The notes under the pieces are model-generated. The model did no database searches. It saw nothing but the letters and a program-made list of their open reading frames with translations, and was not told where the DNA came from. Below are positions 14,264 to 37,394 of a stretch of 64,000 nucleotides of DNA, piece after piece (position 1 is the stretch's first letter; each line of letters starts with the position of its first letter). The DNA comes from Alphaproteobacteria bacterium (GTDB lineage Bacteria; Pseudomonadota; Alphaproteobacteria; UBA828), in the NCBI GenBank assembly GCA_965214705.1, contig OZ243972.1, forward strand, positions 4,000,001-4,064,000. The letters run 5' to 3'. Position numbers and translations under genes: made by a program.

Positions 14264-15502
14264 ATGCGACGTGTCATCGGCATCGACATCCACCGGACCT
14301 TCGGGGAGGTGGTGATCTAGGAGAACGGGGCTTTGCAGCACGCCGGCCGGGTGGATATGACCCGCACGGGATTGGAGGGCTTCGGCAAGGGCCTGCGGGC
14401 GACGGACGAGGTGGTGATCGAAGCGACGGGGAACTGCATGGCAGTCTCGCGTGTGCTGTCGCCCTTCGTGAAGCGGGTGGTGATCGCCAATCCGTTGCAG
14501 GTGAAGGCGATCGCGCACGCCCATGTGAAGACCGACAAGGTCGACGCGGGGACGCTGGCGAGCTTGTACGCGGCGGGGTATCTGCCCGAGATCTGGACGC
14601 CGGATGCGGCTACCGAGCGGCTGCGCCGGTTGGTGGCGCGGCGCTACCAGGTGGTGCGCCACAGGACGCGGCTCAAGAACGAGGTGCATTCGATCCTTCA
14701 TGCGCATCTGATCCCGAAGTGCCCGCACGCGGACCTGTTCAACCGGCGGGGGCGGTCGTGGCTGTCGCGCCAGCCCTTTCCCGACGACGAGCGTGCCGCG
14801 ATCGAGCGGCACATCCGTGAGCTTGATCGCCTGGGCGAGGACCTCGACCTCCTCGACCGCGAGATCGCGGAGAGTGCGCTGGACGATGCGGCGATCAAGC
14901 GGCTGATGACGATCACCGGTGTCAATCTCACCGTCGCGGTGGGACTGATGGCGGCGATCGGCGACATCGCCCGCTTCTCTTGCCCGCAGAAGCTGGTGAG
15001 CTACTTCGGCCTCAACCCGCGTGTGCGCCAGTCCGGTCTCGGCGCTGCCCACCACGGGCGGATCAGCAAGATCGGCCGCAGCCATGCCCGGACGATGCTG
15101 GTCGAGGCCGCCTGGGCGGCGGCAAAGGCCCCGGGGCCATTGCACGCCTTCTTCGTCCGCATCCGCGCCCGCCGCGGCCACCAGGTCGCCGCCGTCGCCG
15201 TCGTGCGCAAGCTGGCCGTCCTCTGCTGGCACATGCTGACCAAGGAGGAGGACTACCTCTGGGCCCGCCCGGCACTGGTGGCCAACAAGCTGCGCGCCAT
15301 GGAGCTGCAGGCCGGCAGGCCGCAGCAAAAGGGGAACCGGCGCGGACCGGCCTACGCTTACAACATCAAGGCGCTGCGCGACCAGGAGATCGATCTCGCC
15401 CGGCAAGCCGAGCGTAGCTACGAACGCTTCGTTGGCAACTGGCGTCCGCGCAAGCCACGGGACGGGGCGCGCGGACGCCTCAAGCCGGCAAGGCCTGAGT
15501 GA
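14264..15502 (+). pseudogene. IS110 recombinase with premature amber stop
   Basis: RBS GGAGG, MRRVIGIDIHR; in-frame TAG at 14318-14320 (probably TGG); EATG, KTDKVDA, GLNPRVRQSG motifs follow. Confidence 0.88.
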
Positions 15503-22066: not shown

Positions 22067-23439
22067 TTGAACGAAGCCGCGGGCCACGAGAGGCGAAGTT
22101 GAGCTATGTGGAAAGTGCGCTGATGTCAGCGTCAGGCGGCATCCACCGGCAGCAGAGTTGCGCATAAAATCGACGCTCGCGCCGGTCTTTCGGCAGGCAT
22201 GCGGGCGCACGCTGCGAGGACTGAGCGGGGTGTGAGCCGAGGGCTGTCAGCCCGGCTCAAGCGGAGACAGGTTCGGTCGTGCGTCGGCGCTTTGGCGCCG
22301 TTGCGCGGGGCCGAAGCGAGCGGGCGTCTCACGGTTTCCCCCTGTGGGTCGGCGGCAGCGCCGGCGGGCCGCGCGTCGAGCGGGGCTCATGGCGGCGGCG
22401 GATTTCGCGGACGAGGCGCATGACGCCGCCGCAGTGGGGGCAGGCCACGGGCGCGGTGCCGATCTCGGGCTCTTCGTCGGGCTCGGCCTGAGCGCCGTCC
22501 ACGCTTCCCTCGGGGGCGGCGCAGCCGAGGGCGCCGAGAGCCTGGCGTGCTCTCTCCAGCGTGCTGGCGCGGCAGCCGTTGGCGAGGATGCCGAAGTAGC
22601 GAATGCGGTGCATGCCGTCCGGCAGGACGTGCCTCAGGAAGCGGCGGATGAACTCGTCGGCGCTCACGGTGGCGATGCCGTAGCGCGGCTTTCTCTGCCC
22701 CGGCGCCTTGGGCTTTCGGTGGCGGAAGGAGACCGTCTCGCCGTCGAAGGAGACGATGCGGCTGTCGGAGATGGCGATCCTGTGCGTGTAGTGCGAGAGG
22801 TACCGGAAGACCTGCTCAGGCCCGCGGAAGGGCCGCTTGGCGTAGACCACCCAGTCCCTGGCCCGGGCGGCGGCAAGCGTGGCGTGGAACTCGCCGGGAT
22901 TGGCGAGGTGGGCGACGGTGCCGTGGAACTCCAGGTCCCCCCGGCCGTGGGCGCGGGCGAGCTCCTCGAGGAAGAGGCGGCGGAACAGGCTGCCGAGGAC
23001 CTTGACGGGGGCGAGGAAGGTGGTGCTCCCCGTCTTCCACTCGCCACTGTCTACGTCGAAGCCCGCGTTGGGCACGACCACGTGCAGGTGCGGGTGGAAG
23101 CGGAGCTTCTGATCCCAGGTATGGAGGACCGCGGTGCCGCCGATGCGCATGCCGCCGTGGCGGGGATCGGCGGCGATGGTGCGCAGGGTCTCGGCGACGG
23201 CCCGGAAGAGGATGTCGAACACCACCCTGCGGTTGCAGAAGGCAATGGCGGCAACCTCCTTGGGCAGGGTGAAGACCACATGGAAGTAGGGCACCGGCAG
23301 GATGTCCCCGGCGCGCTCCTCGCTCCAGAGGTTGGCGGCGAGACCCTGGCAGGTGGGGCAGTGGCGGTTGCGGCAGGAGTTCTTATGAGCTCTCTCCGCA
23401 AGGCCCGGCTTCATCTACGTCAATGGCATTCGCAATCTC

Positions 23440-23700
23440 TCCACTCGAATCCGCGGCCGATGTCCAGGCAGAACGTCGTTTCCACGCAGCGATCCGCCAC
23501 GCTGCTCAGCTCTTATCCGGTTCGGAACTCCGGCGCTTGCCGGCTCCGTGACCCCAATACCGCATCCAAGCGGTGGTGACGTTCCGGGAGGCGGGACCCA
23601 TCTGTAGAACGGTGCCAAGCGGCGACCCAACTCTTGCCCGGTCACACGCCTTGCCCGGCATCCTCCGCGGCCGCGTCCGACCACGTCGGAACCTCCTGTA
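23440..23700 (-). ncRNA. Candidate seekRNA/bridge RNA of IS1111 copy A
   Basis: RNA-strand GAGTTG and CCGTTCT match the target flanks; GGTAT and ATAAGAG match the circle junction (see findings). Ends are approximate. Confidence 0.65.
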
Positions 23701-23726
23701 TTTTCCCGTTCGTTCGGCCGGTGCCC

Positions 23727-24923
23727 TCAGGAGACGATGGCGCCCTCAGGCACCAGTCCTTGGGTGGCATAGCGCCACAGCGCGATCAGCAGCTTGCGCG
23801 CGACCCCCACGATCGCCCGCTTCCTCGCTCGCCGGTCCCTCCCGCCACCGGCATCCCTGGCGACGTAGGCGTGGAACCACTTCGTGATCGCGCTTTCCGG
23901 TTGCAGCTTCAGCCAGCGCCAAGCCATCTGGATCATGTGCTTCCTGACATGCGAGGGGCCGGCCTTGCTGATGCCAAGATCGTGGTCGACATCTCCGCTC
24001 GCCCACGGCACCGACGTCAACCCGGCCCAGCTGCCCAACTCCCGGCGATTGCGGAAGTCCCGATAGAACACCTCGCCAGCCAGCAGTGTGGCGTCATTGA
24101 GGCCGATGCCATGGATGCGCGTAAGCGCCGCGATCATCGCCGTCCCGTCACGATTGGTCGCGTCCTGGGCTTTCCGGCCAGCCTTCAGCAGGGCCCTCTT
24201 CTCGGCCTCGATCATCTCGATATGCTCCTCAACCAGGCGAAGCATCCCCACCGCCCTCTCAATCTCTGCCCGCGCACGCGGCGGCAACGGCGCCCCATAG
24301 CCCGTCCGCGCGGTCGCGAGGCGTTCGAGGAAGTCCGGCTTGCGCGGCGCCAGATCGAAGATGCCGTGCAACTGCAAGAGCCCTTTGATCCGGTTGTTGA
24401 CGCGGGTACGCTCGCTGATCAGCGTGTCCCTCTCGCGCAGCAGGCGCTTGGCATCCTCCTGGTCCACATCGGGCACGCGCACCCAGGACATGGCCTCCGA
24501 ATCGCCTTGGTCCCATGCCTTCAGAGCCCGAACCATCCTCCTCGCGTCGATACGGTCGGTCTTTTTCTTCTTGGCGCGCCGGTTCACCCGCAGGCTCGCC
24601 GGATCGTTCATGAAGATATCGATCTCCGCGTCACGGCGCTCGATATCGCGGGCAAGCCAGAACCCCTCGTAGCCCGCCTCGTAGGTCAGCATCACCCGAG
24701 GACGGGCGCCGAGCTCCCTCGCCACCCGTTCCCGCACCGACCCGACGAGATCCAACAGTCCCGCCGTGTCGGCAGCAGCCAGTGTGTGGATGCTGATGCT
24801 GCCACCCGAGGCATCCGGGCAATGCACGCCAACGATCCACGATTTGAGGCTGATCTCCACCGCGACATAAATCGTGCTACTACTTGCGCCTGTCAGCGCG
24901 GTCGTGTCTGGACCATCCGACAT
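23727..24923 (-). CDS. IS110-family recombinase (IS1111 subgroup)
   Basis: YVAVEIS, YEAGYEGFWL, KTDRIDA, GLTSVPWASG, ISKAG, ARKL. Confidence 0.92.
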   Translation of the reverse strand: MSDGPDTTALTGASSSTIYVAVEISLKSWIVGVHCPDASGGSISIHTLAAADTAGLLDLVGSVRERVARELGARPRVMLTYEAGYEGFWLARDIERRDAEIDIFMNDPASLRVNRRAKKKKTDRIDARRMVRALKAWDQGDSEAMSWVRVPDVDQEDAKRLLRERDTLISERTRVNNRIKGLLQLHGIFDLAPRKPDFLERLATARTGYGAPLPPRARAEIERAVGMLRLVEEHIEMIEAEKRALLKAGRKAQDATNRDGTAMIAALTRIHGIGLNDATLLAGEVFYRDFRNRRELGSWAGLTSVPWASGDVDHDLGISKAGPSHVRKHMIQMAWRWLKLQPESAITKWFHAYVARDAGGGRDRRARKRAIVGVARKLLIALWRYATQGLVPEGAIVS

Positions 24924-25845
24924 CCGTCCACTCCGTTGTTGACGATTCCGCTCGGAGAGAAGGTGCTGGCCTTCTCTCCGAGCTTGTCTAACCGCCAGAA
25001 TCGATTCGGTGCCACCGTGCTCATGGTATCTGAAGAGCGGAGTGCGCCAGGCGAACTGGTGCGAGTGCAGTTGGTGAAAGTCCAACAGGAAGGAGAAGGT
25101 GAGCCACCACTTCCACCCCGAGTCATGGGCCGTCGCTCGCGAGGGCGAGGGTCAAGCGTTGACAGGGGCGCGTGTGGGCGGGGCTATTGAGCACCGAAAG
25201 AAACATCATCCGGGATGCCGAGGCTCTTTCGTTGGCCGAAGGTCGCATCTGGCCCACCGATATGGCGAGGGGGGTCTGAATCCCGCGGTGTCAGAGAACC
25301 CACGCACGTACGTACGCACTGCACCGGGACCTGGGAGGTCTCCATGTCATCCCGCTGAGTCGTGGCGGGAACGCTGAGGAAAGGAGGAGTCCGTAACCGA
25401 AGATGAACGACATGGAGAAATCAGACTCGGCCATAGTGTGTGCTGGGCAGCGCCCAGATCAGGTGGGTTCAAGTCCCACTGGCGCTCGGGTAAGGGGCGC
25501 CATATCCAAAAGTGGGGGTAATTCCTCACTGGCCGGAGTGAGCCGATAAGCGAAACTCTAAACGGGCACGAAGCCGGAAACGGCGGAGACAGCCAAGGGA
25601 GGAGCTAAGTTGGTCCACTGTCGAAAGACAACCGGAAGGCAGGGTGTCCACCGCGAGGTGGAATCTGAAGGGCTTGCGGAGAAGTACCGGGCCGTAATCG
25701 AGGGGGCCACCCCATGATGAATCGGTCGGCCAAAGACGGGGCAAGGTCGAGCCGGCACTATGGCGGCGAAGGCGTTCTTACCCACCCGTCGCACCAAGGT
25801 GTTTGCGAGCGGCACGGTACGGAAGATCTGGACGTGACCCCAGGA

Positions 25846-27532
25846 GGGTGTGATTCTCGTATGGCGATATGCCAGTCGTGATGGCGCTAAAGGATATGGG
25901 CTGGTTCATTTTGGTCAAGCAGCGAGTGCCAGGACTTCGGTTGGGCTGATGTTGTCGTTAGCTGGTCCGGATCGGGCGTCCATGAGCGCATCCCATGCCC
26001 GGTCGAAGAGGCCGGATTTGATCAGGGCGCGGAAGGTCAGAACCGCCTGCCCGCCGTCGATCCGCCAGCGCATGCCCGAGCGTTTCAAGCGCTGCGCGAC
26101 GAGGGTCTTGCAGGCCGCCTCGACCACACCCGAGCCGATGGCGATGCCCTCTTCCTTCAGGGCGTGGTAGCGCATCCGATGGCGGTGCTTTCGGAAGAAG
26201 GCCAGTTCGCGCTCGATCTCGGCCGGGTCCCCCTTTGCCCTGTCCAGGAGGTAGCGCAGTGCCCGGATCACCTTGTCGACGCCGCGGGGGTCGTGGCGCA
26301 GGATTTCGCGGTGCTTCTCGAACCAGTGGCGCGCCACCGCATGGTCAGAGGCCACGCGGAGATGCTCGCAAGCGTGCCAGAAGTCGATGACCTCGGTCTC
26401 GGGCGAGAGGCTTTCGAGGAAGGTCCAGTTGTCGGCGGCCCCGTCGGCGACGGCGCCGATCCTGATCTTCGGGCTCACACGGCGGATATGGGCGACCTCG
26501 CTTGCAAGTTGCGCTTTCAGCGCGGCCTTGCCGCTCTCGGGCATACGGCCGAGATAGAGGGTCTTCAGCCGTTGGCCCTCGGCGTCGTGGAAGGAGACCG
26601 TGCCGCAAGAGGCCTCGCGCCAGCACGCCTCGGCACGGCCGTCCTCGCCGGCCCGCAGCGCCACCATGACGCCGTCAAGGGAGACGGACGCGGTGACCGC
26701 ATCGGGCGGTATGCCCTGGGTTTCACGGATGCTGGCCAGCGTCTCCGGGGCGACGCTCTCCCAGTGCTCATGCATGCTCAGGGCCAGGCGCTGCAGCGTG
26801 CTCACCGACGGCGTCATTCCGCCCATTTTCGCGAAGAACTCCTCCGCTTCACGCGGCGTACAGTGGCCCATCATCATCAGCCCGAGCTGCGCCGCCGGCC
26901 GCGTCAGGTAGTCGTCGATGAGGCCCAGGCTCTCGTCCACCGGCACCAGCGACGTGCTGCTCGCGCCGCTGCGATAGCGCGCACGCCGATAGGTCACGGG
27001 ACCGAGCGTCGTCATGATCGTCTTCGGCGTCGCCGCCACCCGGACCCAGCTCTGTCCGTCGCGCTCGATCCGGCTCGCACCGTCGTCGCGGCTCTCGGCG
27101 AAGGCCCCAAGGAGCTTGCAACCCAAGCCGTTCATGGCGTCCCGCAGCCCCGTCTCAACCGTTTCGAACGTCTCGGCAGACGGGTCAGACCCAGCCTGTT
27201 CGCGACAGAACTCCACCACCTGGGCGACCGCTTCGGCGACTTCGGCAGGCAGGCCCAAAAGGTCGATGGACGAGGCGATGAGAGACTGCGACACTGGCAT
27301 GGGAACGCTCCTGATGTTGGGTCTGATGTTGGGTTGTCGGCGCGGCATCCTACCGCATCTCGCGGTGCGGAGCGTTCCCACCCACCACTGCTGGATGCCG
27401 CCGTTGTGACAAAATCCGGCCCTGCACCGGCCGATTGTCACGAAAACCCGATTCTGGCTGCCTACGGCCACCCGCCAATCGCGCTAAATCAATGACTTAC
27501 GATCGCCATGCCAGACCTCCAGACCTACACCC
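25846..27532 (-). mobile_element. ISKra4-family element inside the inner intron RNA
   Basis: Ends GGGTGT / ACACCC; 8-bp TSD CCCCAGGA (25838-25845, 27533-27540). Confidence 0.88.
25915..27300 (-). CDS. ISKra4-family transposase
   Basis: SLDG, ADGAADNW, DFWHACEHL, IGSGVVEAACK..RLKRSGMRW. Confidence 0.88.
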   Translation of the reverse strand: MPVSQSLIASSIDLLGLPAEVAEAVAQVVEFCREQAGSDPSAETFETVETGLRDAMNGLGCKLLGAFAESRDDGASRIERDGQSWVRVAATPKTIMTTLGPVTYRRARYRSGASSTSLVPVDESLGLIDDYLTRPAAQLGLMMMGHCTPREAEEFFAKMGGMTPSVSTLQRLALSMHEHWESVAPETLASIRETQGIPPDAVTASVSLDGVMVALRAGEDGRAEACWREASCGTVSFHDAEGQRLKTLYLGRMPESGKAALKAQLASEVAHIRRVSPKIRIGAVADGAADNWTFLESLSPETEVIDFWHACEHLRVASDHAVARHWFEKHREILRHDPRGVDKVIRALRYLLDRAKGDPAEIERELAFFRKHRHRMRYHALKEEGIAIGSGVVEAACKTLVAQRLKRSGMRWRIDGGQAVLTFRALIKSGLFDRAWDALMDARSGPANDNISPTEVLALAA

Positions 27533-27611
27533 CCCCAGGAGGGCTCGCCGCGTTCCCGGGTGGCACCGGGATAACGGACCCTATAAGCCGAAAGGCGAAA
27601 TGGGAAGGGGA

Positions 27612-27794
27612 TTATATATCTGACTGAATGACGGGCTGATCCATGATGCCGGATGGCTCCGCCTCAGCCTCCCCGTCTTCGGCCTGTGGCTCGTGCCGCA
27701 ACAGCGCGCGGGCCACCATTTCAGGAGTCGCCCCCTCGTAGCGGGGGTTGAGCGTCTCCAACTCGTGTTTCAGCTTTTCAGCCTTCTCGGTCAT
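27612..27794 (-). CDS. 60-aa conserved IS1595-associated microprotein
   Basis: PRYEGATPEMVARALLR resembles the ORF at 58686-58847; stop codon lies inside the IR. Confidence 0.65.
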   Translation of the reverse strand: MTEKAEKLKHELETLNPRYEGATPEMVARALLRHEPQAEDGEAEAEPSGIMDQPVIQSDI

Positions 27795-28210
27795 TGCGTT
27801 GCCTTCATTCCCGGTGGCGAGGGGGGGGCGATACTATATTGCATATTATCGCCCCCTCTGTCACCATGCCCGCGCTCACATCTGAGAAGCCCGCTTCGTC
27901 GGGCTACTCGCTGAATACAACAGCCCTTGTGTGGCTCGGGGTCGCTCCCCGGACCGGCGAATAGGCGGGACCTTCCAACGCTTCTTGGATGTGAGCAAAC
28001 GGCCCGGCACCCCGTCGGGCCGCGAGCAGAGGGCAGGCTACGCTATAAGAGATCGCCCCATCGGCTGGGGACGGGTGGTGCCCCGTCCCCAGCCTACCAC
28101 GGGGCTTGGTGTTGGCTTCGGAGAGCGCACCAAACCGCACGGCAATGACAGTCTATTACCGATCCCAAGCCGTACAAGAGGTGCCTCTCCGACGATTTTA
28201 GGAGAGCGCT

Positions 28211-28582
28211 ATGCACACTTGGTATGCCTCTTTGGCGGCAGCGGCCATGATGCTCGCCGCTGTCGCCACCACTCACGCGCGGGCAGATATCGTATGCCCA
28301 AAGGGCAGCCTGCACGACTTCGTTCCAAACGCGGTCTGGCAACAGTACGTCGCCAACAGCCGGGACTATATCGCTCGGATGCTCCGAAGGATGGAGGATG
28401 TCCGAGACCGCCAGATGGTCATGGAGCGGATGTTCGAGGAGGGCTTCATCGCCGCCACGGACATCGTGAACGCTCACTGCGTCTCGCGGCCGATTGGCGA
28501 GCCATGGAGCACAGAGATCAAGCAGAAGCGGCGCGAGGCTTGGTGCCGAGAATGGGGTGATGCCTATTTCTGCAAGAGGTGA
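28211..28582 (+). CDS. Hypothetical secreted protein (passenger)
   Basis: RBS AGGAG, Ala-rich signal peptide ending THARA, four Cys; overlaps the next gene (GTGA). Confidence 0.65.
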   Translation: MHTWYASLAAAAMMLAAVATTHARADIVCPKGSLHDFVPNAVWQQYVANSRDYIARMLRRMEDVRDRQMVMERMFEEGFIAATDIVNAHCVSRPIGEPWSTEIKQKRREAWCREWGDAYFCKR

Positions 28583-29361
28583 TCGCAAGAATCACCGTGC
28601 TTCCGATCTACGTCATCAACCTCGACCGCAGGCCGGATCGGCTCGCGGCAATCGCGGCGGACCTGGACCGGCTCGGCCTACCCTTCGAGCGCATCAAGGC
28701 CGTCGACGGCCAAGAGCTACAGGAAGATCTGGGCCCGGAGCCGCTTCTGAACCTGGCTGAGAAAGCGTGCGTGCTGAGCCATGCGAACGCGCTGCGGCAC
28801 CTCCTCCATTCAGAACACCCAGCGGCCGTGATCCTCGAGGATGACGCTGAGTTCGGAGAGGGGCTTGCGCAACTCTCCCGCTCGATCGACTGGTGGCCGG
28901 AAGGCACCTTGCTGCTGAAGCTGGACCAACCGTTCCCGAGAAAGCGGCTCGTCGGCCTGCCGTGTGGACGAACGCCGGACGGCCGCAACCTGAGAGAGAA
29001 CATCCGGTGGAGCTCAGGGTCGGTGGGCTACATCGCTACTCGCGCCGCTGCCGGCGAGATACTGGTGTCCCTCGAGACAGACAGCATCATGCCCTTCGAC
29101 GAACTGATGTTCGACTGCCGCATATCAGACCTAGCGCGCTGGCTCCGTGCAATGCAAGTCCAGCCCGCGCCTGTCCGGCAACGGGACCGCGGGAGACCGG
29201 ATGAATTCCCCTCGGATTTGGAGGACAGCCGCCAGACACCGGAGTCATTGAGTTATCGCCACCGCCGTCGACAGCGGCGCCGATTTCACCGTCGTCTGTA
29301 TCTCTGGATGTTGTGGGCAATCGGCAATGCGAAGAGCATGAAGATCACCTACTGCCCGTAA
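28579..29361 (+). CDS. Glycosyltransferase family 25 (LPS/LOS-type)
   Basis: YVINLDRRPDR, FERIKAVDG, ACVLSH, ILEDDA. Confidence 0.9.
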   Translation: MIARITVLPIYVINLDRRPDRLAAIAADLDRLGLPFERIKAVDGQELQEDLGPEPLLNLAEKACVLSHANALRHLLHSEHPAAVILEDDAEFGEGLAQLSRSIDWWPEGTLLLKLDQPFPRKRLVGLPCGRTPDGRNLRENIRWSSGSVGYIATRAAAGEILVSLETDSIMPFDELMFDCRISDLARWLRAMQVQPAPVRQRDRGRPDEFPSDLEDSRQTPESLSYRHRRRQRRRFHRRLYLWMLWAIGNAKSMKITYCP

Positions 29362-29601
29362 TCGCAGATTCAAACTGACCCACTACCCGCGATTGACGAC
29401 TGACCGGGTTTAGGCTATCCGCGGGCTCGTGGCCGTGACGAATCGCGGTGGCCTCGACTGACGAAGCCGGCCCTGGCGGGACCGGCTTCGGAACTGGGGT
29501 CCGGTGTAGACCTACCGAGGCGCACCGAACTGGCTCATCTGAGGTGGAAATCCTAGCGATTCCCGCGAGCCGGTCAAGTGCGCCCTCAAGAAGAGGGCAC
29601 A

Positions 29602-29826
29602 ATGCCGAAGAAATATCCGACCGGCTTCGATCTCAGCAAACGCTCATCCCGTTCTCGCAAATCGCGGAAGCCCGACCAACCTTCGATCAAGTATGGTGAT
29701 GTTGTCCGGCAGCGCCCGAATGGGCTGCCACTGCAAGTCACCGATGTGGAGGGCGATAAGGTCTACTGCGACGGGTTCATTGACCCGTTCGGGGCATCCG
29801 GCCTTGAAGTTGTGATCCGCTTCTAG
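29602..29826 (+). CDS. Small hypothetical protein (YodC/DUF2158-like fold possible)
   Basis: IKYGDVVRQRPNGLPLQVTDVEGDKVYC pattern; RBS AAGAGG. Confidence 0.5.
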   Translation: MPKKYPTGFDLSKRSSRSRKSRKPDQPSIKYGDVVRQRPNGLPLQVTDVEGDKVYCDGFIDPFGASGLEVVIRF

Positions 29827-31044
29827 TGTCCTGTCATTCATCAACTGTCGGATAGAGGCGTTTCAGCTTCACCCGTGCGTCGTCCGTGGTGAACTGCCAG
29901 TTGACGTTGCCCCGGATGCGGTCTCGGGACGCCTGCCAAGCCGCGACCTCGTCGCGCAGGACTTCGAGGGAGGCGATGCGGCGGTTGAGACACTGACGGA
30001 TCATGACGTTGAGCTCGACCTCGGCGACGTTGAGCCAACTGCCGTGCTTGGGCGTGTAGACGAACTCGAAGCGGTCCCACAGCGCCTTGGCCTGGTCCGG
30101 CGGAAATGCCTCGTAGAGGGCGCCGGGGCGGTGGGTGTTCAGGTTGTCCATCACAAGCGTGATCCTCTTGGCGCGGGGGTGGCGCTCGGCGATGTCGTTG
30201 AGGAAGTGCGCCCAGTCGGTTTTGGTTCTGCGCGCCGTCACCTTGGTCATACGCCGCCCGGCCAGGGGTTCGGTCGCCATGAACACGTTGCAGCTTCCGC
30301 AACGTCGGTACTCGTAGTCTTCGCGCGCCGGCCGACCCGGCGCTGCCGGAACCGGTTCGCGTGTCTCGCCGATCAGTTGCCGGGGCGTCTCGTCCATGCA
30401 CACCACCGGAAAGGCTGCATCGTAGGGACGCCGGTAGACGTCGAGAACCTTCTCCATCGCCGCGGCGAAGTCCGCGTTGCCCTGTGGGGGAATCACCCAG
30501 CCGACGCGCCGCCACGGCTTGATTGCGTTTTTTTTAGCACCCGGCGCACCGTCTCGTGCGACACGCTGTCGATGTGGCCGAGTTCCACGATGCGGTCCGC
30601 CAGCAACCGCAGCGACCACTGCGAGTGGCCCTCCGGCGGCTCGGCGCAGCTCAGCGCCACCAAGTGCGCCTCGAACTCGCCGTCGGCCTTGCGCACGTAG
30701 CTGGGACGGCGACCCTGCCGGCCACCGAGCGCCGCCGCCATGCCCGCCTCGACGAAACGCTTCTTGACCCGCTCCACCTTGCGCGCACTGATGCGCAGGA
30801 TCTCCGCAATGGCCTCCCCGTGCGCCCGGTGCTCGTTGAACTCGCCTTCGTCGCAGTTGAGCAGGATCAGCGCGTTGATCACCTTCTGTGACTGATGAGA
30901 GCCCTTGCGCGTGATCTCTGCGAGCTCGTCCCGCTCCTCCTTCTCCAAAGTCACCACGTAACGCTTCATGCCAGCCTCCTCGCCGTCGTGCGACGACGAG
31001 AAAGCTATCATGAAATGGGCGACATATCGTATGTGACATGACAC
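29826..31044 (-). mobile_element. IS630-family element inside the IS1595
   Basis: IR GTGTCCTGTCA / TGACATGACAC; TA duplication within CTAG. Confidence 0.92.
29834..30969 (-). CDS. IS630 transposase, programmed -1 frameshift
   Basis: orfA MKRYVVTL...VSHETVRRVLKK; A8 run at 30528-30535; orfB CMDETP, MDNLNTH, TPKHGSWLNVAE. Confidence 0.9.
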
Positions 31045-32020
31045 TAGGACCGCGCGCCTGAGTCCAGTCCGTTGTCGGCGATCAGGTCACGGTAGCACAG
31101 GCGCTTGCCGATCATCCCGGCGACCACCGCGCCCATCTGGTCGATGGTGTCGCTCTCGCGCACGTTGTGGCGGCCCGCGAACTCTTGGACGTACCGTTGC
31201 AGGTGCTTCGCGCTCAGCTTGTGGTAGACGCCCTTGTGCGCCCGCTTGAGCATGGACCAAAACGACTCCATGCCATTGACGTGGGCTTGGTTGCGGACAT
31301 ACTCGCCAGCACTGTGGTTCACGGCCTCGCGGTCGAACTCGCCTTCCAGCGGGTTGTAGGCTGCGCTTTCGTCCGTATAGACCTTCGCGCCCGGCTCGGT
31401 CTTCTCTGCGACGAAGCCCGCGACATGCGGGGCATCCGTGTTCTGAATGTGCCGCACCGCGACGCGGTTGGTGGCGCGGTCCTTGGTGCCGACCACGGCC
31501 TCTTTGCCGACTGCACCGCGCCCGCTCAGCGTCTTCCGCTTGGCCTTCGACATGTTCGCGCGCCGCCCACCCACGTATGTCTCATCGGCCTCGACCGGCC
31601 CCGAGAATAGCGATTCGCTCTCGGCGGACCAAGCCTCCCTGATCCGATGCAGCATGAACCAAGCGGTCTTCTGCGTCACCCGCAGGTCGCGATGCAGCTT
31701 CATCGACGACACGCCCTTGAGGCTGGTCATCTCCAGGTAGATGGCGAAAACCCACTTGCGCAGCGGAACCTTGGAGCGCTCCAAGGCCGTGCCGATCCGC
31801 ACCGAGAAGGCCCGCTTGCAGGCCGGGCAGTAGTAGGGCAGGCCGGACGTGGCGGACGCTTCCGCAGTCTCGGTGCATCCGCAGCGCGGGCAATGGCGAC
31901 CATCCGGCCAGACCAGAGACTCGAACCACGTGGCGGCGGAAGCCTCGTCCGGGAACATCTCGGTCAACTCGATCAGGCTGATTCCCTCGCGGTGCGCTTT
32001 GCCCGGTGCCTTCTTCGCCA
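31044..32020 (-). CDS. IS1595-family transposase
   Basis: CPRC/CPAC zinc ribbon, AWFMLHRIR, VEADETYVGG, YTDE, HVNGMESFW. Confidence 0.94.
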
Positions 32021-32249
32021 TCGCCCTAACCCCTTGTGCTAACGTCTTGATCTGAATATAGGGGTTCACGACCGTTCAGTCAGGTATATAATCCCCAATG
32101 GGAAAGGATGCGCGGCGAGCAATCGGACAACCGAATAGTACCTGAAGCCCGGCGAAAGCCGGGTGACCGCGCGAGCGGCGGCCGTGTGGGCCGGGGAAGG
32201 CGGTTGGCAGAGGTGGTCGGCGAGAGACAGCGATGAGTGAGTAAGGACC

Positions 32250-33560
32250 ATGACGCGGACAAGTTCCTTGAGCGAAAGACCCGGACATCATGGCCCGAGG
32301 AGACTCATCGACTGGATCAACCCGGCGGGTGACAGGAAGGTCCACTCACTGGTGGACAAGGTGTACAAGCGGAAGAACCTTGAGGTGGCCTGGGAAAAGG
32401 TGAAGCGCAACCGGGGTGCCGGTGGCGTGGACGGAGAGGATTTAGCGGCGTTCGAGGCATCGCTGGATGCAAATCTCGATCGCCTGCACCGGGAGTTGCG
32501 GGACGGTGAGTATCACCCGCAGCCGGTTCTCCAATGCCTGATCCCCAAGGCGGGCCAGCCGGGGAAGTTCCGCCCGCTCGGCATCCCGACAATCTACGAC
32601 CGGGTGTGCCAGCAGGCGCTGCTGAACCGGCTGGAACCGATCTTCGAGCCGGTGTTCGACGATGCCAACTACGGGTACCGGCAAGGAAGGTCTGCCCATG
32701 GAGCGTTACGCAAGATATGGAGGGAACTGGACGAGGGCAACGAGTGGGTTCTCGATGCGGATTTGAAAGACTTTTTCGGGTCCGTGGACCACGAAAAGCT
32801 CCTCGAACTCGTCAACCAGCGAGTCTCGGATGGCCGGGTATTAGGTCTGCTCAGGCAGATGCTCACGGCCGGGGTGGTGGCCGACGGTAAGAGGCTGCCG
32901 ACCGAACAGGGCACTCCGCAGGGCGGCATCGTTTCACCGCTGCTCAGCAATATCTTGCTGACCCCGTTCGATTGGGAAATGCGTCGTCGCGGCTATCGAC
33001 TAACGCGATACGCCGATGATTGGCTGATCACGTGCCGCACACGCGGGGAAGCCCGCGCAGCACTGGAGACGGCCAGGCGGATTCTGGCAAAGCTGGGTGT
33101 GTCCCTCAACGCCGGGAAGACCCGCATTGTCCATGTCAGGCACGGGTTTGAGTTCCTCGGCTACAAGATCAAGCAGGGCGAGCGGCCTCTCCGGCTGTCG
33201 TCCTCCAAGATCAAGAGCGGGGTTCGCGGGGGAGCGCGCTACGCGGTTCCGCGTGAGAAATCCATCCGGCACTTCAAGGACCAGATTCGCCAGCGTACCC
33301 GGCGCAAGGCTCCTGTCAGCACGCAGGAGCTGATTGACGAGATCAACCCGATCATTCGGGGATGGGGCCAATACTATTGCAAGGCCCACGTCCGCGGGCT
33401 CTTCCACCAGCTTGACGGCTGGATCGTGCGGCGGCTCTGGTCGCATCGTCGCAAGCGCTGGCGCAACGCTGGCTGGAAACAGTTGCCGGAGCGCAAGCTG
33501 ATCGACGAATACGGGCTTGTTCGCCTGATCTCACTGGTTCCGTCCTTGAACCTTCGTTGA
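32250..33560 (+). CDS. ltrA: Group II intron reverse transcriptase/maturase (inner intron), intact, no endonuclease domain
   Basis: RPLGIPTIYDRVCQ, GTPQGGIVSPLLSN, RYADD, FLGY, maturase X domain (NPIIRGWGQYY). Confidence 0.95.
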   Translation: MTRTSSLSERPGHHGPRRLIDWINPAGDRKVHSLVDKVYKRKNLEVAWEKVKRNRGAGGVDGEDLAAFEASLDANLDRLHRELRDGEYHPQPVLQCLIPKAGQPGKFRPLGIPTIYDRVCQQALLNRLEPIFEPVFDDANYGYRQGRSAHGALRKIWRELDEGNEWVLDADLKDFFGSVDHEKLLELVNQRVSDGRVLGLLRQMLTAGVVADGKRLPTEQGTPQGGIVSPLLSNILLTPFDWEMRRRGYRLTRYADDWLITCRTRGEARAALETARRILAKLGVSLNAGKTRIVHVRHGFEFLGYKIKQGERPLRLSSSKIKSGVRGGARYAVPREKSIRHFKDQIRQRTRRKAPVSTQELIDEINPIIRGWGQYYCKAHVRGLFHQLDGWIVRRLWSHRRKRWRNAGWKQLPERKLIDEYGLVRLISLVPSLNLR

Positions 33561-33822
33561 GACACCTTTGTGAAAGCGGCTTACGGGAAAACCGTACGGG
33601 CCGTTTGAGCGGCGGACGGAGGCTAGCCTCGCGGGGCGCCTCCTCCGACCCGACAGCGATGAAGCCGGCGAACAATGGGGCACCTGCCCCGGCGGAGCCG
33701 GTGGAGCCAAGGGCCGAGCCCAAGGGGAATCTGGAAGGCCAAAGCACGCGCCGGACGCAGGACCGGGAGAGCGTGTCACAAGCGGCTGACCGGATACGGC
33801 AGTTTGTACAAAGGGAACCTGG

Positions 33823-35852
33823 CCCATCTGGGATTATGGCACTACGTTTGTGCGCTCATCGCGACACTCCCGGGAGCACCGCCCGGCGCCTGTGGGGATC
33901 CACCGTGAGGCCCGCCGCCTGCGCGATGACGCGCGCCTCGGCGTCGGGTTGAGCATCCTGGCGGATGACGATGCGGTTTCCGTCCACCTCCCGGATGGTG
34001 GAGGTGAGACGCACCCAGCCCGCGAGCTTGTCGCGGATCGTACTCCAGCGGTCATGCAAGCCGTGCGCCGCCAGACGGGTTCGCAGCAGATGAACCGCGT
34101 GGTAGGCGAGGACGGCGATGAACAGGTGGGCGGCGATGCGCGAGGTCTTGGAGTGCCAGACCGGGCGCAGGCCGATTTCGGATTTCAGGCTGCGGAAGGT
34201 GGCCTCGAGCTCTGTGAGCTTCCAGTAGGTTCGGACCACGGTTTCAAGATCCCACTCGACGTGGCTGGTGCGCAGCACATAGATGCCCGCTTGGCGGTCG
34301 CGCTCGGCATGGAGAGCGTTGCGCCTCCAGCGGACCGCACTGGCCCGCCCCTTCTCTCCGGGCTCGACCTCGATGTCGTACTGACGGTGGACGCGCCTGT
34401 ACCTTTCCTTCAGCCGGCCCAGCTTCTCCATCACCTTGGTGAACTGCTTGATGTGGTTCTTCTTCGACAGCCCGCCATGCAGGGCGCGCAGGGCGTCCTC
34501 GAAGTTGTGACGCTGACGGGCGAGCACGGCCTCGTCCTTCTGCTGGCGCTCATGGCTCCAGACGCACAGGTGCGCTTCGTCGTCCCCTGCCGCGAGACGC
34601 CAGGCGCGGGCATCGTGGCCGGCCCGGGTTTCGAAGGCGGCATCGGCTTCGCGCCCGGGCGGCGCCGAGACGCCGCGGCGAACGGTGATCCAGTGATAGC
34701 CGCCCGCCCGCAGCCAGGCGAGGTTGGCCTCGGTGGAGATGCCGGCGTCCATGATGACCGTGGGCCTGGGGGCGTTGCTGCCGCGCGCTTGGCATTCCAG
34801 CCGCCCGATGGCGTCGGCGAGAGTGGCCGGCTCGGAGATGTTGCCGGGCAGGATCTCGCTGTGCTGCGGAAAGCCGGCCTGGTTCAGCGACAGGGCCAGG
34901 GTCACGATCGGACAATCGTCACGCCTCTGCTTCGAGCGCCCGAAGCGGGCCAGCGCGGAGCTGGGCCGTCCGGTCATATGGGTGTTGGTCAGGTCGAAGA
35001 AGACGATGGTGTCGGGGATGCCGAAGAGATCGCGCTCCCGGGCGCACAGCGCCTCTTCAAGCGCCGCGCGGTGACGCCACAAGAGGTCGCCGATGCGGTA
35101 GAGCTTGCTGAGCGTGAGCGACTTGCCGCTGTCGACATCGAGCAACTCCAGGGTCGCGCTGTTCGCGCTCAGCCAGCGGAAGGCCTCGCGCTCGCTGGAG
35201 GGATGGATCATGCGCGCGACCACCAGTGCCGCCGCGATGCGTGCGTCGCGCTCACTTGCGCCCAGCCTCTCCAGCGTCTCGATGAAGCGAAGGTCGTCAA
35301 GCGCGGCGAGAGCCAGGCGCTCGCAGCCCACCGAGCGGACCTGTTCGTGGGAGAGGCTATCGAGACGGACCGTGGCCAGGTCGCTCTCGTCCCCGGGCCG
35401 CGACGCGCCGAGATCGCGGGCGTGAAGCCGCCGTACGACGTCCTCGGCGACGGGGCGCAAGGCGGCATCCGGCTCCAGCAGCGGCTCGCTGCCGGCGAGA
35501 AGGGTTTCGATCAGAAGCGCCAATTCGCGCCATTGCTCCTCGGGCACACCGAAGTCGGCGCCGAGATTGAGGAGCGTGACCTGGCGCACCCTTCCGCCGA
35601 TGCGTTCGCTGCGCACGAGGCGGTAGGTGGCATAGCGCTCGCCACCGTCTCCGCGACCGGTGAGGGTTTTGCGAATGAACATGGCGGCAGGGTCACGGAC
35701 AGTTTGCGGACTGTCAAGGAGCGCCGGCCCACAGACCAAAGATTATGGCACTACAATGGACTTCCCAAAACACAATCCAACAAAATCAGTGCCTTAGATC
35801 CCAAAGGCTACCCAAAATCAGGCCTTCGGGACCGAAAAGTGGCAAAGATGGG
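33823..35852 (-). mobile_element. IS1634-family element, copy 2 (lacks 66 bp at the transposase-distal end)
   Basis: Matches 11995-14024; TSD CTGG (33819-33822, 35853-35856). Confidence 0.92.
33856..35682 (-). CDS. IS1634 transposase (same protein as 12028-13854)
   Basis: Identical translation in the ORF track. Confidence 0.92.
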   Translation of the reverse strand: MFIRKTLTGRGDGGERYATYRLVRSERIGGRVRQVTLLNLGADFGVPEEQWRELALLIETLLAGSEPLLEPDAALRPVAEDVVRRLHARDLGASRPGDESDLATVRLDSLSHEQVRSVGCERLALAALDDLRFIETLERLGASERDARIAAALVVARMIHPSSEREAFRWLSANSATLELLDVDSGKSLTLSKLYRIGDLLWRHRAALEEALCARERDLFGIPDTIVFFDLTNTHMTGRPSSALARFGRSKQRRDDCPIVTLALSLNQAGFPQHSEILPGNISEPATLADAIGRLECQARGSNAPRPTVIMDAGISTEANLAWLRAGGYHWITVRRGVSAPPGREADAAFETRAGHDARAWRLAAGDDEAHLCVWSHERQQKDEAVLARQRHNFEDALRALHGGLSKKNHIKQFTKVMEKLGRLKERYRRVHRQYDIEVEPGEKGRASAVRWRRNALHAERDRQAGIYVLRTSHVEWDLETVVRTYWKLTELEATFRSLKSEIGLRPVWHSKTSRIAAHLFIAVLAYHAVHLLRTRLAAHGLHDRWSTIRDKLAGWVRLTSTIREVDGNRIVIRQDAQPDAEARVIAQAAGLTVDPHRRRAVLPGVSR

Positions 35853-37394
35853 CTGGGGTGCGTCTCACGACGCTCCTCCATCACGTCACGGTCGCTGCGC
35901 TGCGCTGGGCGTTCTTCGAGTTGAAGAAGGACGCTGCGGCGGGTGTCGATGGCCTGACGTGGCGGATGTACAAGGAAGGGCTGGAAGGCCGTCTCGCCGA
36001 CCTGCACGACCGAGTGCACTCGGGGGCGTACCGGGCGACGCCATCACGGCGGGTGAACATCCCGAAGCCGGATGGCGGCACACGACCGCTCGGCGTCGCG
36101 GCCATAGAGGACAAGATCGTCCAGAAGGCTGTGGCGGAGATAATCCTGACGCCGATCTACGAGGCGGAGTTTCTGGGGTTTAGCTACGGGTTCCGACCCG
36201 AGCGTGGGGCGCACAATGCGCTCGATGCGCTGGCGGTCGGGATCGAAAGGCGCAAGATCAACTGGATAGTGGACTGTGACATCCGCAAGTTTTTCGACAC
36301 GGTTTCGAGGGACTGGCTGGTCCGGTTTCTAGAGCACCGGATAGGGGACAGGCGGGTTATCAGGCTGATTATCAAGTGGTTGAACGCTGGCGTCATGGAA
36401 GCTGGAGAGTGGCGTGACGACCTGCGGGGAACTCCGCAGGGTTCGGTGATTTCGCCGATCTTGGCGAACGTTTATCTGCACTACGTCCTCGATCTTTGGT
36501 TCCAGAAGAAGTGGCGCAGCCACGAGGTCAACGGCGACTCGATCATCGTTCGCTACGCCGACGACTCTGTGGTGGGTTTTCAGCACGAGCAGGACGCGGA
36601 GTGCTTTCTGGAGGCCGTAAAGGAGCGGCTCGGACGCTTCGACCTGGAACTGCATCCCGACAAGACCCGGCTCATCGAGTTCGGGCGGCACGCCATAGAG
36701 CGCCGCCAAGGCCGAGGGCAGGGTAGACCGGAGACCTTCGATTTTCTGGGCTTCACACACTACTGCGCGAAGACCAGACGGGGGTACTTCATGCTGGGGC
36801 GCAGGCCGATGGCGAAGAGGATGGCCCGCACCCTGAAGCGGATCAAAGAGGTGCTACGCAGGCGGATGCATGACAACATCGAGGATACGGCCAGGTGGCT
36901 GGGCAAAGTGGTGGACGGATGGCTGAACTACTATGCCGTCCCGACCAGCAGCCGGTACTTACAACGCTTCCTCGTCCGCCTAAAGCGGGTGTGGCTCGCC
37001 ATTATACGCCGCAGATCGCAAAAGGACCGATTTACATGGGCCGACATCGACAAACTTAAAGCTCGACACTGGCCCAAGCTGAGAATCCGACACCCGTGGC
37101 CGGATCAACGACTAGCCGTCAGTTCGACCTGAGGGAGGAGCCGGATGCCTTAGCGGGCACGTCCGGATCTGCGCGGGGGGAGCGGGGCAACCCGCTTCCC
37201 TACCGCGATTGCTCGCGCCCGCAGCCCTCGCAGGCGTACATGTGGCCGCCGAGCACGGCGGTGCGGCACGCCTCGATGGCGCCCATGACCTTGAGCCGGG
37301 CGGCGTCGATGCGCCCTTTGTGGCGCTCACGGAAAGCGGCGCCGGCGCGGCGGAAGATCTCCGCCACGCCCGCGCGTTCGGCCTCCACGCGCCG

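What the first reader, a model, noticed from the sequence alone, without database searches (positions are those of the whole stretch)
23382..25031. IS1111 whose 3' RNA appears programmed against the IS91 zinc-finger codons
Seen: the empty target is CCGCTCTTC|AACTCC (PLF-NS of NSCRNRHC) and the circle junction is CATAAG|AGATACC. The 3' non-coding strand contains, in order, GAGTTG (23633-23628, complement of CAACTC), a hairpin, CCGTTCT (23612-23606, 6/7 to CCGCTCT), GGTAT (23561-23557, complement of ATACC) and ATAAGAG (23516-23510, junction). The donor-guide order is the same as in the IS110 at 14 kb. Known: IS1111 seekRNA/bridge RNA lies downstream of the recombinase. Inference: an intact RNA-guided recombinase that parasitises and disables IS91 transposases. 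The matches are short, so they need statistical support.
Basis: partly seen in the sequence, partly recalled or inferred. Interest (0 to 1): 0.85.

Follow-up and report, generated by a model that had tools for sequence, protein, structure and literature searches.

The report
RNA-guided insertion sequence that targets IS91
This is an intact IS110/IS1111-type insertion sequence whose own 3' guide RNA matches one spot in the transposase gene of another insertion sequence (IS91), and it has split about a fifth of this genome's IS91 copies there; the mechanism is a known one seen in a new, clear natural example.

Summary
Window 23382-25031 (- strand) is a 1650-bp IS110-family element. It has 13 identical copies, 1 near-identical copy and 7 diverged or split copies in the genome.

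Nineteen elements lie at CCGCTCTTC|AACTCC in the IS91 zinc-finger codons, with no target duplication. About 70 empty sites remain, so 19 of 99 IS91 junctions are occupied.

The short matches are not significant on their own: 1315 of 5000 shuffles reach the 9/10 match. The comparative evidence is decisive. A conserved, covarying stem carries a 12x12 internal loop.
- The 5' side of the loop (GGCAAGAGTT) is the reverse complement of the right flank.
- The 3' side (TTCTAC) copies the left flank.
- In 12 related elements with different targets, cognate matches average 8.0/10 and 4.7/6. Non-cognate pairs average 3.9 and 1.6, and 0 of 100,000 permutations reach the observed sums.
- Three held-out elements give 6-7/10.

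The donor guides are only weakly supported.

This is a new member of the bridge/seekRNA kind published in 2024, not a new mechanism. Disruption of IS91 is shown. "Programmed to disable" is an inference.

The parts
23382..25031 (-). The insertion sequence, 1650 bp: AGATACC...CATAAG.
   Evidence: 13 copies at 100% and 1 at 99.94% over 1-1650. 70 empty sites give the exact ends and show no duplication.
25019..25031 (-). Left end: 7-nt terminal extension AGATACC (25031-25025) followed by subterminal repeat ATGAGC (25024-25019).
   Evidence: Read. The repeat is the complement of GCTCAT at the right end. The 7-left/3-right geometry is as described for IS1111 elements (PMC11187229 passage).
23727..24923 (-). 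Transposase/recombinase gene, 398 aa plus stop.
   Evidence: Pfam PF01548 scores 33 bits (cut-off 29) and PF02371 scores 45.8 (cut-off 21.3). NCBIfam NF033542 'IS110 family RNA-guided transposase' scores 174.4 (cut-off 140). A profile hits the C-terminal domain of ISCro4 (9t56, 4.5e-7) and IS621 (8wt6, 5e-5), with the SG motif aligned.
23458..23652 (-). Conserved bridge/seekRNA scaffold inside the 345-nt 3' non-coding region (23382-23726).
   Evidence: Alignment A1 of 12 elements. The structure has 29 pairs in 5 helices, 99.4% of cells paired and 8 pairs with compensatory changes. The covariation score is 0.253 against 0.142 in shuffles (0 of 500 reach it). Slid controls pair in 34-47% of cells.
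23590..23650 (-). Target-binding stem-loop. The closing stem is 23650-23640 with 23598-23590 and the distal hairpin is 23627-23625 with 23613-23611. Between them lies a 12x12 internal loop.
   Evidence: Helix 1 has 9 pairs, 3 of them with changes on both sides, and 100% of cells paired.
23629..23638 (-). Right-target guide g1, GGCAAGAGTT. It is the reverse complement of AACTCTTGCC and matches the IS91 right flank AACTCCTGCC at 9/10.
   Evidence: Position. Covariation with right flanks in 12 relatives: cognate mean 8.0/10, non-cognate mean 3.87 (n=132), 0 of 100,000 permutations.
23604..23609 (-). Left-target guide g2, TTCTAC, in the same sense as the left flank CTCTTC (4/6, or 5/6 with U:G). 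It is followed by the conserved AGATG.
   Evidence: Cognate mean 4.7/6 (n=10) against 1.64 (n=90), 0 of 100,000 permutations.
23469..23586 (-). Long-range stem (23586-23578 with 23477-23469) that encloses the candidate donor-binding multiloop.
   Evidence: Helix 3 has 9 pairs, 2 of them compensatory, and 100% of cells paired.
23557..23561 (-). Candidate donor guide GGTAT, the complement of ATACC in the left end.
   Evidence: Present. It overlaps the 3' strand of hairpin 23574-23570 / 23563-23559, whose closing pair covaries. The donor role is therefore unproven.
23510..23516 (-). Candidate donor guide ATAAGAG: the last 5 nt of the right end plus AG.
   Evidence: Present. AUAAGAG goes with CATAAG ends and AUAAAAG with CATAAA ends in 12 of 12 elements. 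Only one position varies.
23382..23390 (-). Right end: subterminal repeat GCTCAT (23390-23385) plus 3-nt extension AAG (23384-23382).
22329..23381 (-). Downstream part of the split IS91 transposase gene, starting NSCRNRHCPTC.
   Evidence: Pfam Zn_Tnp_IS91 (profile positions 47-90 only) and Y2_Tnp. NCBIfam IS91 family transposase scores 329.6 bits.
25032..25041 (-). The only 10 nt of native IS91 left flank (TCCGCTCTTC) kept in this copy.
   Evidence: The rest of the IS91 gene resumes at 37210.
25042..37209 (+). Group II intron, carrying nested insertions, inserted antisense in the same IS91 copy.
   Evidence: Rfam RF02005 at 25077-25300, 172 bits. The 5' GTGCG is at 25042. The same intron sits at the same IS91 position in 2 copies that lack the IS. 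The 3' junction is at 37209/37210.
60072..61721 (-). Second identical copy of the IS in the window, in a standard IS91 site.

Best explanation
The element is an IS110-family insertion sequence laid out like an IS1111 element. It has a short 5' end, a DEDD-type recombinase gene, and a 345-nt 3' non-coding region that encodes a bridge/seekRNA.

In that RNA a conserved stem carries a 12x12 internal loop. The 5' side of the loop (GGCAAGAGUU) pairs with the top strand just right of the insertion point (AACTCCTGCC). The 3' side (UUCUAC, followed by the conserved AGAUG) pairs with the bottom strand just left of it (CTCTTC). A second, multiloop part of the RNA probably holds the two ends of the excised circle (AUAAGAG for the right end, possibly GGUAU for the left end).

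The recombinase-RNA complex then joins the circle to CTCTTC|AACTCC without any duplication. That sequence encodes P-L-F|N-S-C in the zinc-binding domain of this genome's very abundant IS91, so each insertion splits an IS91 transposase gene.

Shown here: the ends, the empty sites, the site specificity, the scaffold structure, and guide-target covariation. Inferred: that the RNA is made and bound, the circle intermediate, the donor pairing, and any benefit from hitting IS91.
For: 1. Site specificity. 19 of 21 elements (including diverged and split copies) lie at the same phosphodiester bond in IS91, and 70-71 empty sites remain.

2. Independent insertions. The 19 occupied copies fall into 8 flank haplotypes. 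These include an intron-bearing IS91 variant and a strongly diverged one. Three of the minority haplotypes also occur empty.

3. Conserved scaffold with variable loop segments. The pattern is GGCGTGTGRCCG-[10 nt]-hairpin-CCG-[6 nt]-AGATGGGYCCCGCC. The structure is supported by covariation.

4. Guides follow targets.
- The 86%-identical copy differs from the reference exactly in the loops (AATAGGCGTT and TTCCAT). Its empty site is GTCCAC|AACGCCTATC, a 9/10 match.
- The element in the Defluviicoccus metagenome-assembled genome (MAG) has ACCACCAGTT and sits next to AACTGGTGGA, also 9/10.
- Over 12 elements the g1 scores are 5, 6, 8x5 and 9x5 of 10, against a non-cognate mean of 3.87 (maximum 7, n=132). 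g2 scores 4-6 of 6 against 1.64. In both cases 0 of 100,000 permutations reach the observed sum.

5. Held-out test. A scaffold pattern search found 4 new elements in 4 of 400 other genomes of the class. Three could be scored and gave 7/10, 7/10 and 6/10 for g1, counted by eye.

6. Guide order. It agrees with the published IS1111 seekRNA order (PMC11187229, section 9). The location agrees with the bridge RNAs predicted in the right end of IS1111 elements (PMC11208160 passages).

7. The protein meets the IS110-family models.
Against: - No direct evidence that the RNA exists. Rfam has no match even at E<=1, and no promoter-like or terminator-like site was found.
- The only RNA libraries that hold related sequence hold 90-95% relatives as contigs, which does not show transcription.
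- The element's own left guide fits IS91 poorly (4/6).
- Two family-A elements have poor right-guide matches, 5/10 and 6/10.
- A perfect 10/10 right-guide match is not sufficient. At least two other AACTCTTGCC sites are unoccupied among the six of the 28 occurrences that one search printed.
- Donor pairing rests on 5 and 7 nt, with one variable position each.
- The 12 elements are relatives, and three of them (ref, c86, L031) are close, so the permutation figures overstate independence.
Confidence: 0.87

Rival explanations
1. Hitchhiking. The element entered IS91 once or a few times, and the IS91::IS composite was then copied by IS91 transposition in trans, by recombination, or by gene conversion. 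On this view the 19 copies do not reflect repeated RNA-guided insertion.
For: 12 of the 19 occupied copies share the major IS91 flank haplotype and are indistinguishable over 400+400 nt. IS91 itself is highly active here: 83 of 97 long matches are 100% identical.
Against: - The occupied copies fall into 8 flank haplotypes, among them the intron-bearing variant and a strongly diverged IS91.
- Three sequence lineages of the element (100%, 96% and 92%) sit in the same site.
- One copy with the same guides sits in a non-IS91 site whose right flank matches the guide 10/10, and its empty paralogue is present.
- Guide-target covariation in relatives needs no hitchhiking.
Confidence: 0.08
2. The specificity lies in the protein or in DNA structure, and the RNA-target matches are coincidence.
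For: In this single sequence the matches are no better than chance.
Against: The loop segments change together with the targets in 12 relatives and 3 held-out elements, while the scaffold and the protein family stay the same. Published experiments show RNA guidance in this family (PMC11187229 abstract and sections read; PMC11208160 passages).
Confidence: 0.03
3. The element is selected to silence IS91, acting as an anti-IS 'hyperparasite' or a host-beneficial brake. The alternative is that it simply uses a harmless multi-copy landing site.
For: - Every insertion splits the zinc-binding domain of the IS91 transposase.
- Close relatives also land in transposition genes: IS21 istB (Pfam 6e-61), a DDE_Tnp_1 transposase and an IS110-family transposase.
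- Of the targets looked up in Pfam with a clear result, four of five are transposition genes.
Against: - Multi-copy, dispensable, horizontally shared sequences are the expected safe targets for any site-specific element. Known IS1111 members use REP, attC and transposon ends (titles in the reference list of PMC11208160).
- 80% of IS91 junctions remain uninterrupted.
- Several relatives' flanks gave no Pfam hit, and one lies next to a methylase-like gene.
- No fitness data exist.
Confidence: 0.2

Closest known systems
IS1111-family seekRNA elements ISEc11, ISKpn4, ISPst6 and ISPa11 (Siddiquee et al. 2024, PMC11187229; abstract and sections 6, 9 and 13 read, plus passages)
   Same: - The long non-coding region lies downstream of the transposase gene.
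- There is no target duplication.
- The terminal extensions are 7 nt on the left and 3 nt on the right, outside a subterminal inverted repeat.
[quoted passage not shown]
- Close relatives with changed segments use different targets.
   Different: - The subterminal repeat is only 6 bp perfect (7 of 9), against the usual 11-13 bp.
- The transposase has 398 aa, against 330-350.
- The target is a coding sequence of another IS.
- No experiment has been done on this element.
IS621 / IS110-group bridge RNA (Durrant et al. 2024, PMC11208160, passages read; structures 8wt6 and 9t56 hit)
   Same: The recombinase family is the same. The guides sit on the two sides of an internal loop. One guide pairs with one strand on one side of the crossover and the other guide pairs with the opposite strand on the other side. 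A second RNA module is expected to bind the donor.
   Different: - Here the RNA lies at the 3' end and the guide order is reversed.
- The donor module is a multiloop, as that paper notes for many IS1111 orthologues.
- Target and donor share only one base (A) at the crossover, not a 2-nt core.
- The first acidic residue of the catalytic set appears to be Glu. E23 is invariant in 30 homologues, but this assignment is inferred and not aligned to a structure.
IS4321/IS5075 in Tn21-family inverted repeats, and the IS1111-attC group (known to me; seen here only as titles in a reference list)
   Same: These are site-specific IS1111-type elements that land in a conserved sequence of another mobile element.
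   Different: Those targets are non-coding ends or recombination sites. Here the target lies inside a transposase reading frame.

Membership tests
IS110 family (DEDD recombinase) | Both Pfam domains, DEDD_Tnp_IS110 and Transposase_20, plus the NCBIfam IS110 model, score above their curated cut-offs. | tested here: met
   PF01548 scores 33.0 (cut-off 29) and PF02371 scores 45.8 (cut-off 21.3). NF033542 scores 174.4 (cut-off 140).
IS110 family (DEDD recombinase) | Catalytic acidic tetrad and the conserved Ser-Gly of the C-terminal domain. | tested here: inconclusive
   S309-G310 is invariant in 30 homologues and aligns with the SG of ISCro4 (9t56). E23, E82, D123 and D126 are invariant, with spacing like my recollection of IS621. 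The N-terminal domain did not align to any solved structure, and the first residue is Glu rather than Asp.
IS1111 group | The long non-coding region lies downstream of the transposase gene. | tested here: met
   345 nt on the 3' side against 108 nt on the 5' side.
IS1111 group | Subterminal inverted repeats, usually 11-13 bp (7-17 bp in PMC11208160). | tested here: not met
   ATGAGC/GCTCAT is 6 bp perfect and 7 of 9 when extended (read). Families A and B have 7 bp.
IS1111 group | Terminal extensions of 7 bp on the left and 3 bp on the right, with no target duplication. | tested here: met
   AGATACC and AAG lie outside the repeats. The empty sites equal the left flank plus the right flank exactly.
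IS1111 group | Transposase of 330-350 aa, related over its full length to that of IS1111. | tested here: not met
   398 aa with my chosen start, and homologues cluster near 395 aa. Relatedness to the IS1111 protein itself was not tested because no reference sequence was at hand.
Bridge/seekRNA-guided element | RNA loop segments complementary to both strands of the target, covarying with the target. | tested here: met
Bridge/seekRNA-guided element | RNA segments matching the element's own ends (donor loop). | tested here: inconclusive
   ATAAGAG tracks the right-end type in 12 of 12 elements. GGTAT overlaps a covarying hairpin.
Bridge/seekRNA-guided element | The RNA is expressed and bound by the recombinase, and a circular intermediate forms. 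| not testable with these tools
   There are no raw RNA reads of this organism. The junction 13-mer is absent from the assembly.

The most novel reading that the evidence does not exclude
This clade of about 395-aa IS110-family elements may be a lineage of RNA-guided 'IS hunters'. By changing a few loop nucleotides they hop between conserved coding motifs of other elements' transposition genes. Examples seen here are the IS91 zinc finger, the IS21 IstB C-terminus and Walker A motif, a DDE transposase, and other IS110 transposases. In doing so they knock those genes out. Recognition would be dominated by a 9-10-nt right guide, with only about 6 nt (at most 10 nt) needed on the left.
Probability: 0.3. 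Interest if true: 0.65.

Novelty: new member of a known kind. Interest (0 to 1): 0.5.

Why it matters
The locus gives a natural record of bridge/seekRNA targeting that can be read from one genome.
- About 70 empty and 19 filled copies of one site are present together.
- A sister element differs mainly in the loop nucleotides and has a different, identifiable target.
- One off-site insertion has a perfect right-guide match and a poor left-guide match.
- One insertion lies in a site where a group II intron had already replaced everything beyond 10 nt on the left.

Together these bound what each guide must recognise, which is useful for people engineering these recombinases. The locus also shows one mobile element inactivating a fifth of the copies of another. 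That bears on how IS loads are limited in genomes crowded with IS elements. It does not reveal a new mechanism.

Tried and rejected
Searches and tests that gave nothing
- Rfam: no family matches the 3' region, at gathering score or at E<=1.
- Promoter/terminator scan of 23300-25100: 0 sites.
- I looked by eye for a promoter formed at the circle junction. TTGCGG-17-TACCAT would form, but it fits the consensus poorly and is not conserved in families A and B. I dropped it.
- Whole-region MFE fold of the 345 nt: z = -1.23, uninformative.
- PDB search with the single protein: 0 hits. The profile search hit only the C-terminal domain.
- Plasmid collection by tblastn: all hits are below 60% identity and none carries an IS name. 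ISfinder is not available, so I cannot say whether the element already has a name.

RNA evidence
- The only RNA-labelled runs (X1-X4, one study) hold 90-95% relatives as contigs.
- This is no evidence of transcription or of this organism. Parts without cover mean nothing.

In-frame fusion idea
- The IS91 N-terminal frame (65 codons) reads through the 5' end into the recombinase gene in the reference and the 96% copy. IstB does the same in the 86% copy. P0002 is a called protein of 660 aa carrying PF01695 and PF02371.
- The 92% copy and the element in the Defluviicoccus metagenome-assembled genome (MAG) are not in frame.
- I treat the fusions as incidental.

Crossover register
- A 2-nt core model fits family B (AG in both target and donor).
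- For the reference, target and donor share only one A.
- The right-guide register varies by 0 to 2 nt among families (allowed three registers). I could not settle this.

Family A
- Elements A1 and A4 fit their right guide poorly. This is unexplained.

Literature
- The searches were: 'seekRNA' + 'IS1111'; 'bridge RNA' + 'IS1111' + 'donor-binding loop'; 'IS110 family', 'IS91', 'target site', 'inserted within', at least 3 of 4; and 'Defluviicoccus' + 'insertion sequence' + 'transposase' (0 papers).
- I found no report of an IS110/IS1111 element targeting IS91.
- The IS91 hits in two preprints turned out to be IS911 or an unrelated remark.
Supplementary Table 5 of PMC11208160 and the target logos of PMC11187229 could already list this or a sister element.


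Full report
WHAT IS THERE

On the - strand, window 23382-25031 is a 1650-bp element with ends AGATACC...CATAAG.

Copies in the 7.92-Mb genome:
- 13 copies at 100% and one at 99.94%.
- Full-length relatives at 97%, 96%, 92% and 86%.
- Three copies split by another IS that makes 8-bp duplications.
- A few fragments.

A second identical copy lies in the window at 60072-61721.

The 398-aa ORF (23727-24923) meets both Pfam IS110 models. It also meets NCBIfam NF033542, which is named 'IS110 family RNA-guided transposase'. A profile of 30 homologues reaches the C-terminal domain of the solved bridge recombinases ISCro4 and IS621, with the Ser-Gly motif aligned.

THE TARGET

Nineteen elements sit between the same two bases...GAGCATCCGCTCTTC|AACTCCTGCCGCAACCGCCACTGC....
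- This sequence encodes ...EHPLF|NSCRNRHC... in the zinc-binding domain of an IS91-family transposase.
- The uninterrupted 15-mer occurs 70 times.
- A census of IS91 downstream halves gives 99 junctions: 19 filled, 68 standard empty, and 12 variants.
- Nothing is duplicated on insertion. Target and deduced circle junction share a single A.

The filled copies fall into 8 flank haplotypes, so several insertions were independent. The 12 copies in the major haplotype cannot be told apart.

All four motifs are at the stated coordinates. Alone they prove nothing: a 9/10 match to the complement of the target is reached by 1315 of 5000 shuffles of the 3' region.

Comparison settles the matter. Aligning the 3' regions of the diverged copies, of two other families in this genome (A and B, about 55% protein identity) and of elements from related genomes shows an invariant scaffold. 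It reads GGCGTGTGRCCG-[10 nt]-hairpin-CCG-[6 nt]-AGATGGGYCCCGCC, and only the two bracketed segments vary freely.

RNAalifold and a pair count on a 12-sequence alignment support five helices:
- 29 pairs, with 99.4% of cells paired.
- 8 pairs with changes on both sides.
- Covariation score 0.253 against 0.142 in shuffles (0 of 500 reach it).
- Slid controls pair in 34-47% of cells.
- Caveat: the structure was derived from these same sequences.

The two variable segments face each other in a 12x12 internal loop.

GUIDES FOLLOW TARGETS

The 10-nt segment is the reverse complement of the right flank, starting at or within two bases of the insertion point. The 6-nt segment repeats the left flank.

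- Reference: GGCAAGAGTT against AACTCCTGCC, 9/10. TTCTAC against CTCTTC, 4/6, or 5/6 with U:G.
- 86% copy: it differs in the loops. AATAGGCGTT and TTCCAT go with the empty site GTCCAC|AACGCCTATC (9/10 and 4/6), found at C3:1422140.
- Defluviicoccus metagenome-assembled genome (MAG) element (88% protein identity): ACCACCAGTT lies next to AACTGGTGGA.
- Family B: GAGAACTGGC with GCCAGTTC(TC), and ACCTTC with GCCTTC. Two empty sites are present.

Over 12 elements with distinct guides:
- Cognate right-guide scores are 5, 6, 8, 8, 8, 8, 8, 9, 9, 9, 9, 9 of 10. The non-cognate mean is 3.87 (n=132, maximum 7).
- Cognate left-guide scores (n=10) are 4-6 of 6. The non-cognate mean is 1.64 (n=90).
- No permutation of 100,000 reaches the observed sums.

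A scaffold pattern search in 400 other genomes of the class found four further elements. Three had a right end and scored 7, 7 and 6 of 10; I counted these by eye. The elements are relatives, so these figures overstate independence.

The order, with the top-strand match 5' of the bottom-strand match, is the one published for IS1111 seekRNAs (PMC11187229). The location is the one predicted for IS1111 bridge RNAs (PMC11208160).

- GAGTTG is the 3' part of the 10-nt guide plus one scaffold G. The guide does not pair across the insertion point.
- The CCG of CCGTTCT is scaffold.
- GGTAT (23561-23557) overlaps the 3' strand of a hairpin. The closing pair of that hairpin switches AU to CG exactly where the 'guide' changes between clades (pair 81-96). 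Its link to the left end (ATACC against ATCC) is therefore confounded.
- ATAAGAG equals the last five bases of the right end plus AG. It changes to AUAAAAG in all six elements whose right end is CATAAA, giving 12 of 12 concordance but with one variable position.
- The donor module lies inside a long-range stem (23586-23578 with 23477-23469). This is a multiloop, as noted for many IS1111 orthologues.

NATURAL EXPERIMENTS IN THIS GENOME

(a) The window copy.
- It has only 10 native bases (TCCGCTCTTC) on its left. Beyond them lies a group II intron (Rfam RF02005).
- The same intron sits at the same IS91 position in two copies that lack the IS. Its other homing sites share GGAGT...GCGGA, a sequence the IS has displaced in the window copy.
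- So the intron came first, and the IS needed no more than 10 nt on the left.

(b) The 97% copy.
- It has the same guides but lies in an IS21 istB gene, antisense, at the Walker-A codons. This reading is my own translation of the flanks; Pfam was not run on this site.
- The site is GGAGATCC|AACTCTTGCC: 10/10 on the right and 2/6 on the left. Its empty paralogue is present.

(c) Unfilled perfect sites.
- One search printed 6 of the 28 AACTCTTGCC occurrences. Two of these lie outside the element and are unfilled, so the left side still counts.

(d) Possible excision scars.
- Two IS91 copies, otherwise 99.7-99.8% identical to the standard copy, carry an indel exactly at the insertion point: +AG and -AAC.
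- I read these as possible excision scars. This is an inference.

WHAT KIND OF TARGET

Flanks of the close relatives also lie in transposition genes:
- IstB_IS21 for the 86% copy (6e-61).
- DDE_Tnp_1 for the MAG element (28.6 bits, cut-off 23).
- An IS110-family transposase, antisense, for family B.

Other relatives gave no Pfam hit or lie next to a methylase-like gene. Whether this reflects selection against other ISs, or simply the use of repeated and dispensable DNA, cannot be decided here.

CLASSIFICATION

The element is a member of the IS110 family. It has the IS1111 layout: a 3' non-coding region, 7/3 terminal extensions, no duplication, and the IS1111 guide order. However, its subterminal repeat is only 6-7 bp and its protein is about 50 aa longer than stated for IS1111 proteins. 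I therefore file it as IS1111-like, not as a proven IS1111-group member.

NOVELTY

RNA-guided targeting in this family was published in 2024, and NCBI already names such proteins accordingly. New here are the element itself, its target inside the IS91 zinc-finger codons, and the set of natural variants that bound guide requirements. My four literature searches found no earlier report of this target.

VERDICT

The element is a new member of a known kind, of moderate interest.

Noticed in passing
window 25042-37209 (+): A group II intron (5' GTGCG at 25042, 3' end at 37209) is inserted antisense in IS91, 10 nt from the IS site. In this copy it is swollen to 12.2 kb by nested insertions, against 5.6 kb in the C3:1609608 copy. 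There are seven near-identical copies in the genome, three of them at this IS91 position. The homing sites share GGAGT..GCGGA.
   Followed up: partly
G000 C1:3005629 and C2:15360 (outside the window): Two IS91 copies, otherwise 99.7-99.8% identical to the standard one, have an indel exactly at the IS insertion point: CTCTTC-AG-AACTCC, and CTCTTC|TCCTGCC with AAC lost. These may be scars of imprecise excision. Both changes alter the zinc-finger region (a frameshift and a lost codon).
   Followed up: partly
window 23382-23414 and 24924-25031 (-): The IS91 N-terminal 65 codons read in frame through the IS 5' end into the recombinase ORF, giving a 499-codon open frame. An ATG at 23414 inside the IS right end is in frame with the rest of the IS91 gene (361-aa ORF). 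The 86% copy is likewise fused to IstB (a called protein of 660 aa). The 92% copy and the Defluviicoccus metagenome-assembled genome (MAG) element are not in frame.
   Followed up: yes
G000 C1:1873053-1874866; locus L057: One copy is followed by a tandem repeat of its last 165 nt (element positions 1486-1650) before the IS91 right flank. A relative in another genome (L057) also has two guide scaffolds 399 nt apart. The duplication point does not match the guides.
   Followed up: no
G000 C2:518994-523403; C3:687404-691813; C3:1713791-1718200: Three copies of the IS are themselves split by another element of about 2.8 kb. Its ends are GTAAGCGGTA... and it makes 8-bp duplications at three different positions. 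This gives three levels of nesting, IS in IS in IS91.
   Followed up: no
whole genome G000: IS91 load is extreme. 97 long matches to the IS91 downstream half were found, 83 of them 100% identical. At least three further families of IS110-type elements carry the same RNA scaffold; the scaffold pattern matches 30 times in the genome.
   Followed up: partly
window 14333-15502 (+): Another IS110-family transposase gene (PF02371 79 bits, PF01548 52 bits) that is unrelated at the DNA level to the element studied.
   Followed up: no
window 23335-23381, in contigs of runs X1-X4: Contigs from one metatranscriptome study carry IS91-like sequence that continues past the insertion point as an empty site. 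The site reads ...CCGTTGTAC|AACTCC, whose left side fits the element's left guide (TTCTAC) at 5/6, better than this genome's IS91 does. One contig of a 90-95% relative of the IS ends in a different right flank, AACTCTTGTT.... These are contigs only, with no strand or expression information.
   Followed up: no
window 25915-27471 (-): A 518-aa ORF with a weak UPF0236 match (32 bits) lies inside the swollen intron region. It is probably another transposase-like gene.
   Followed up: no
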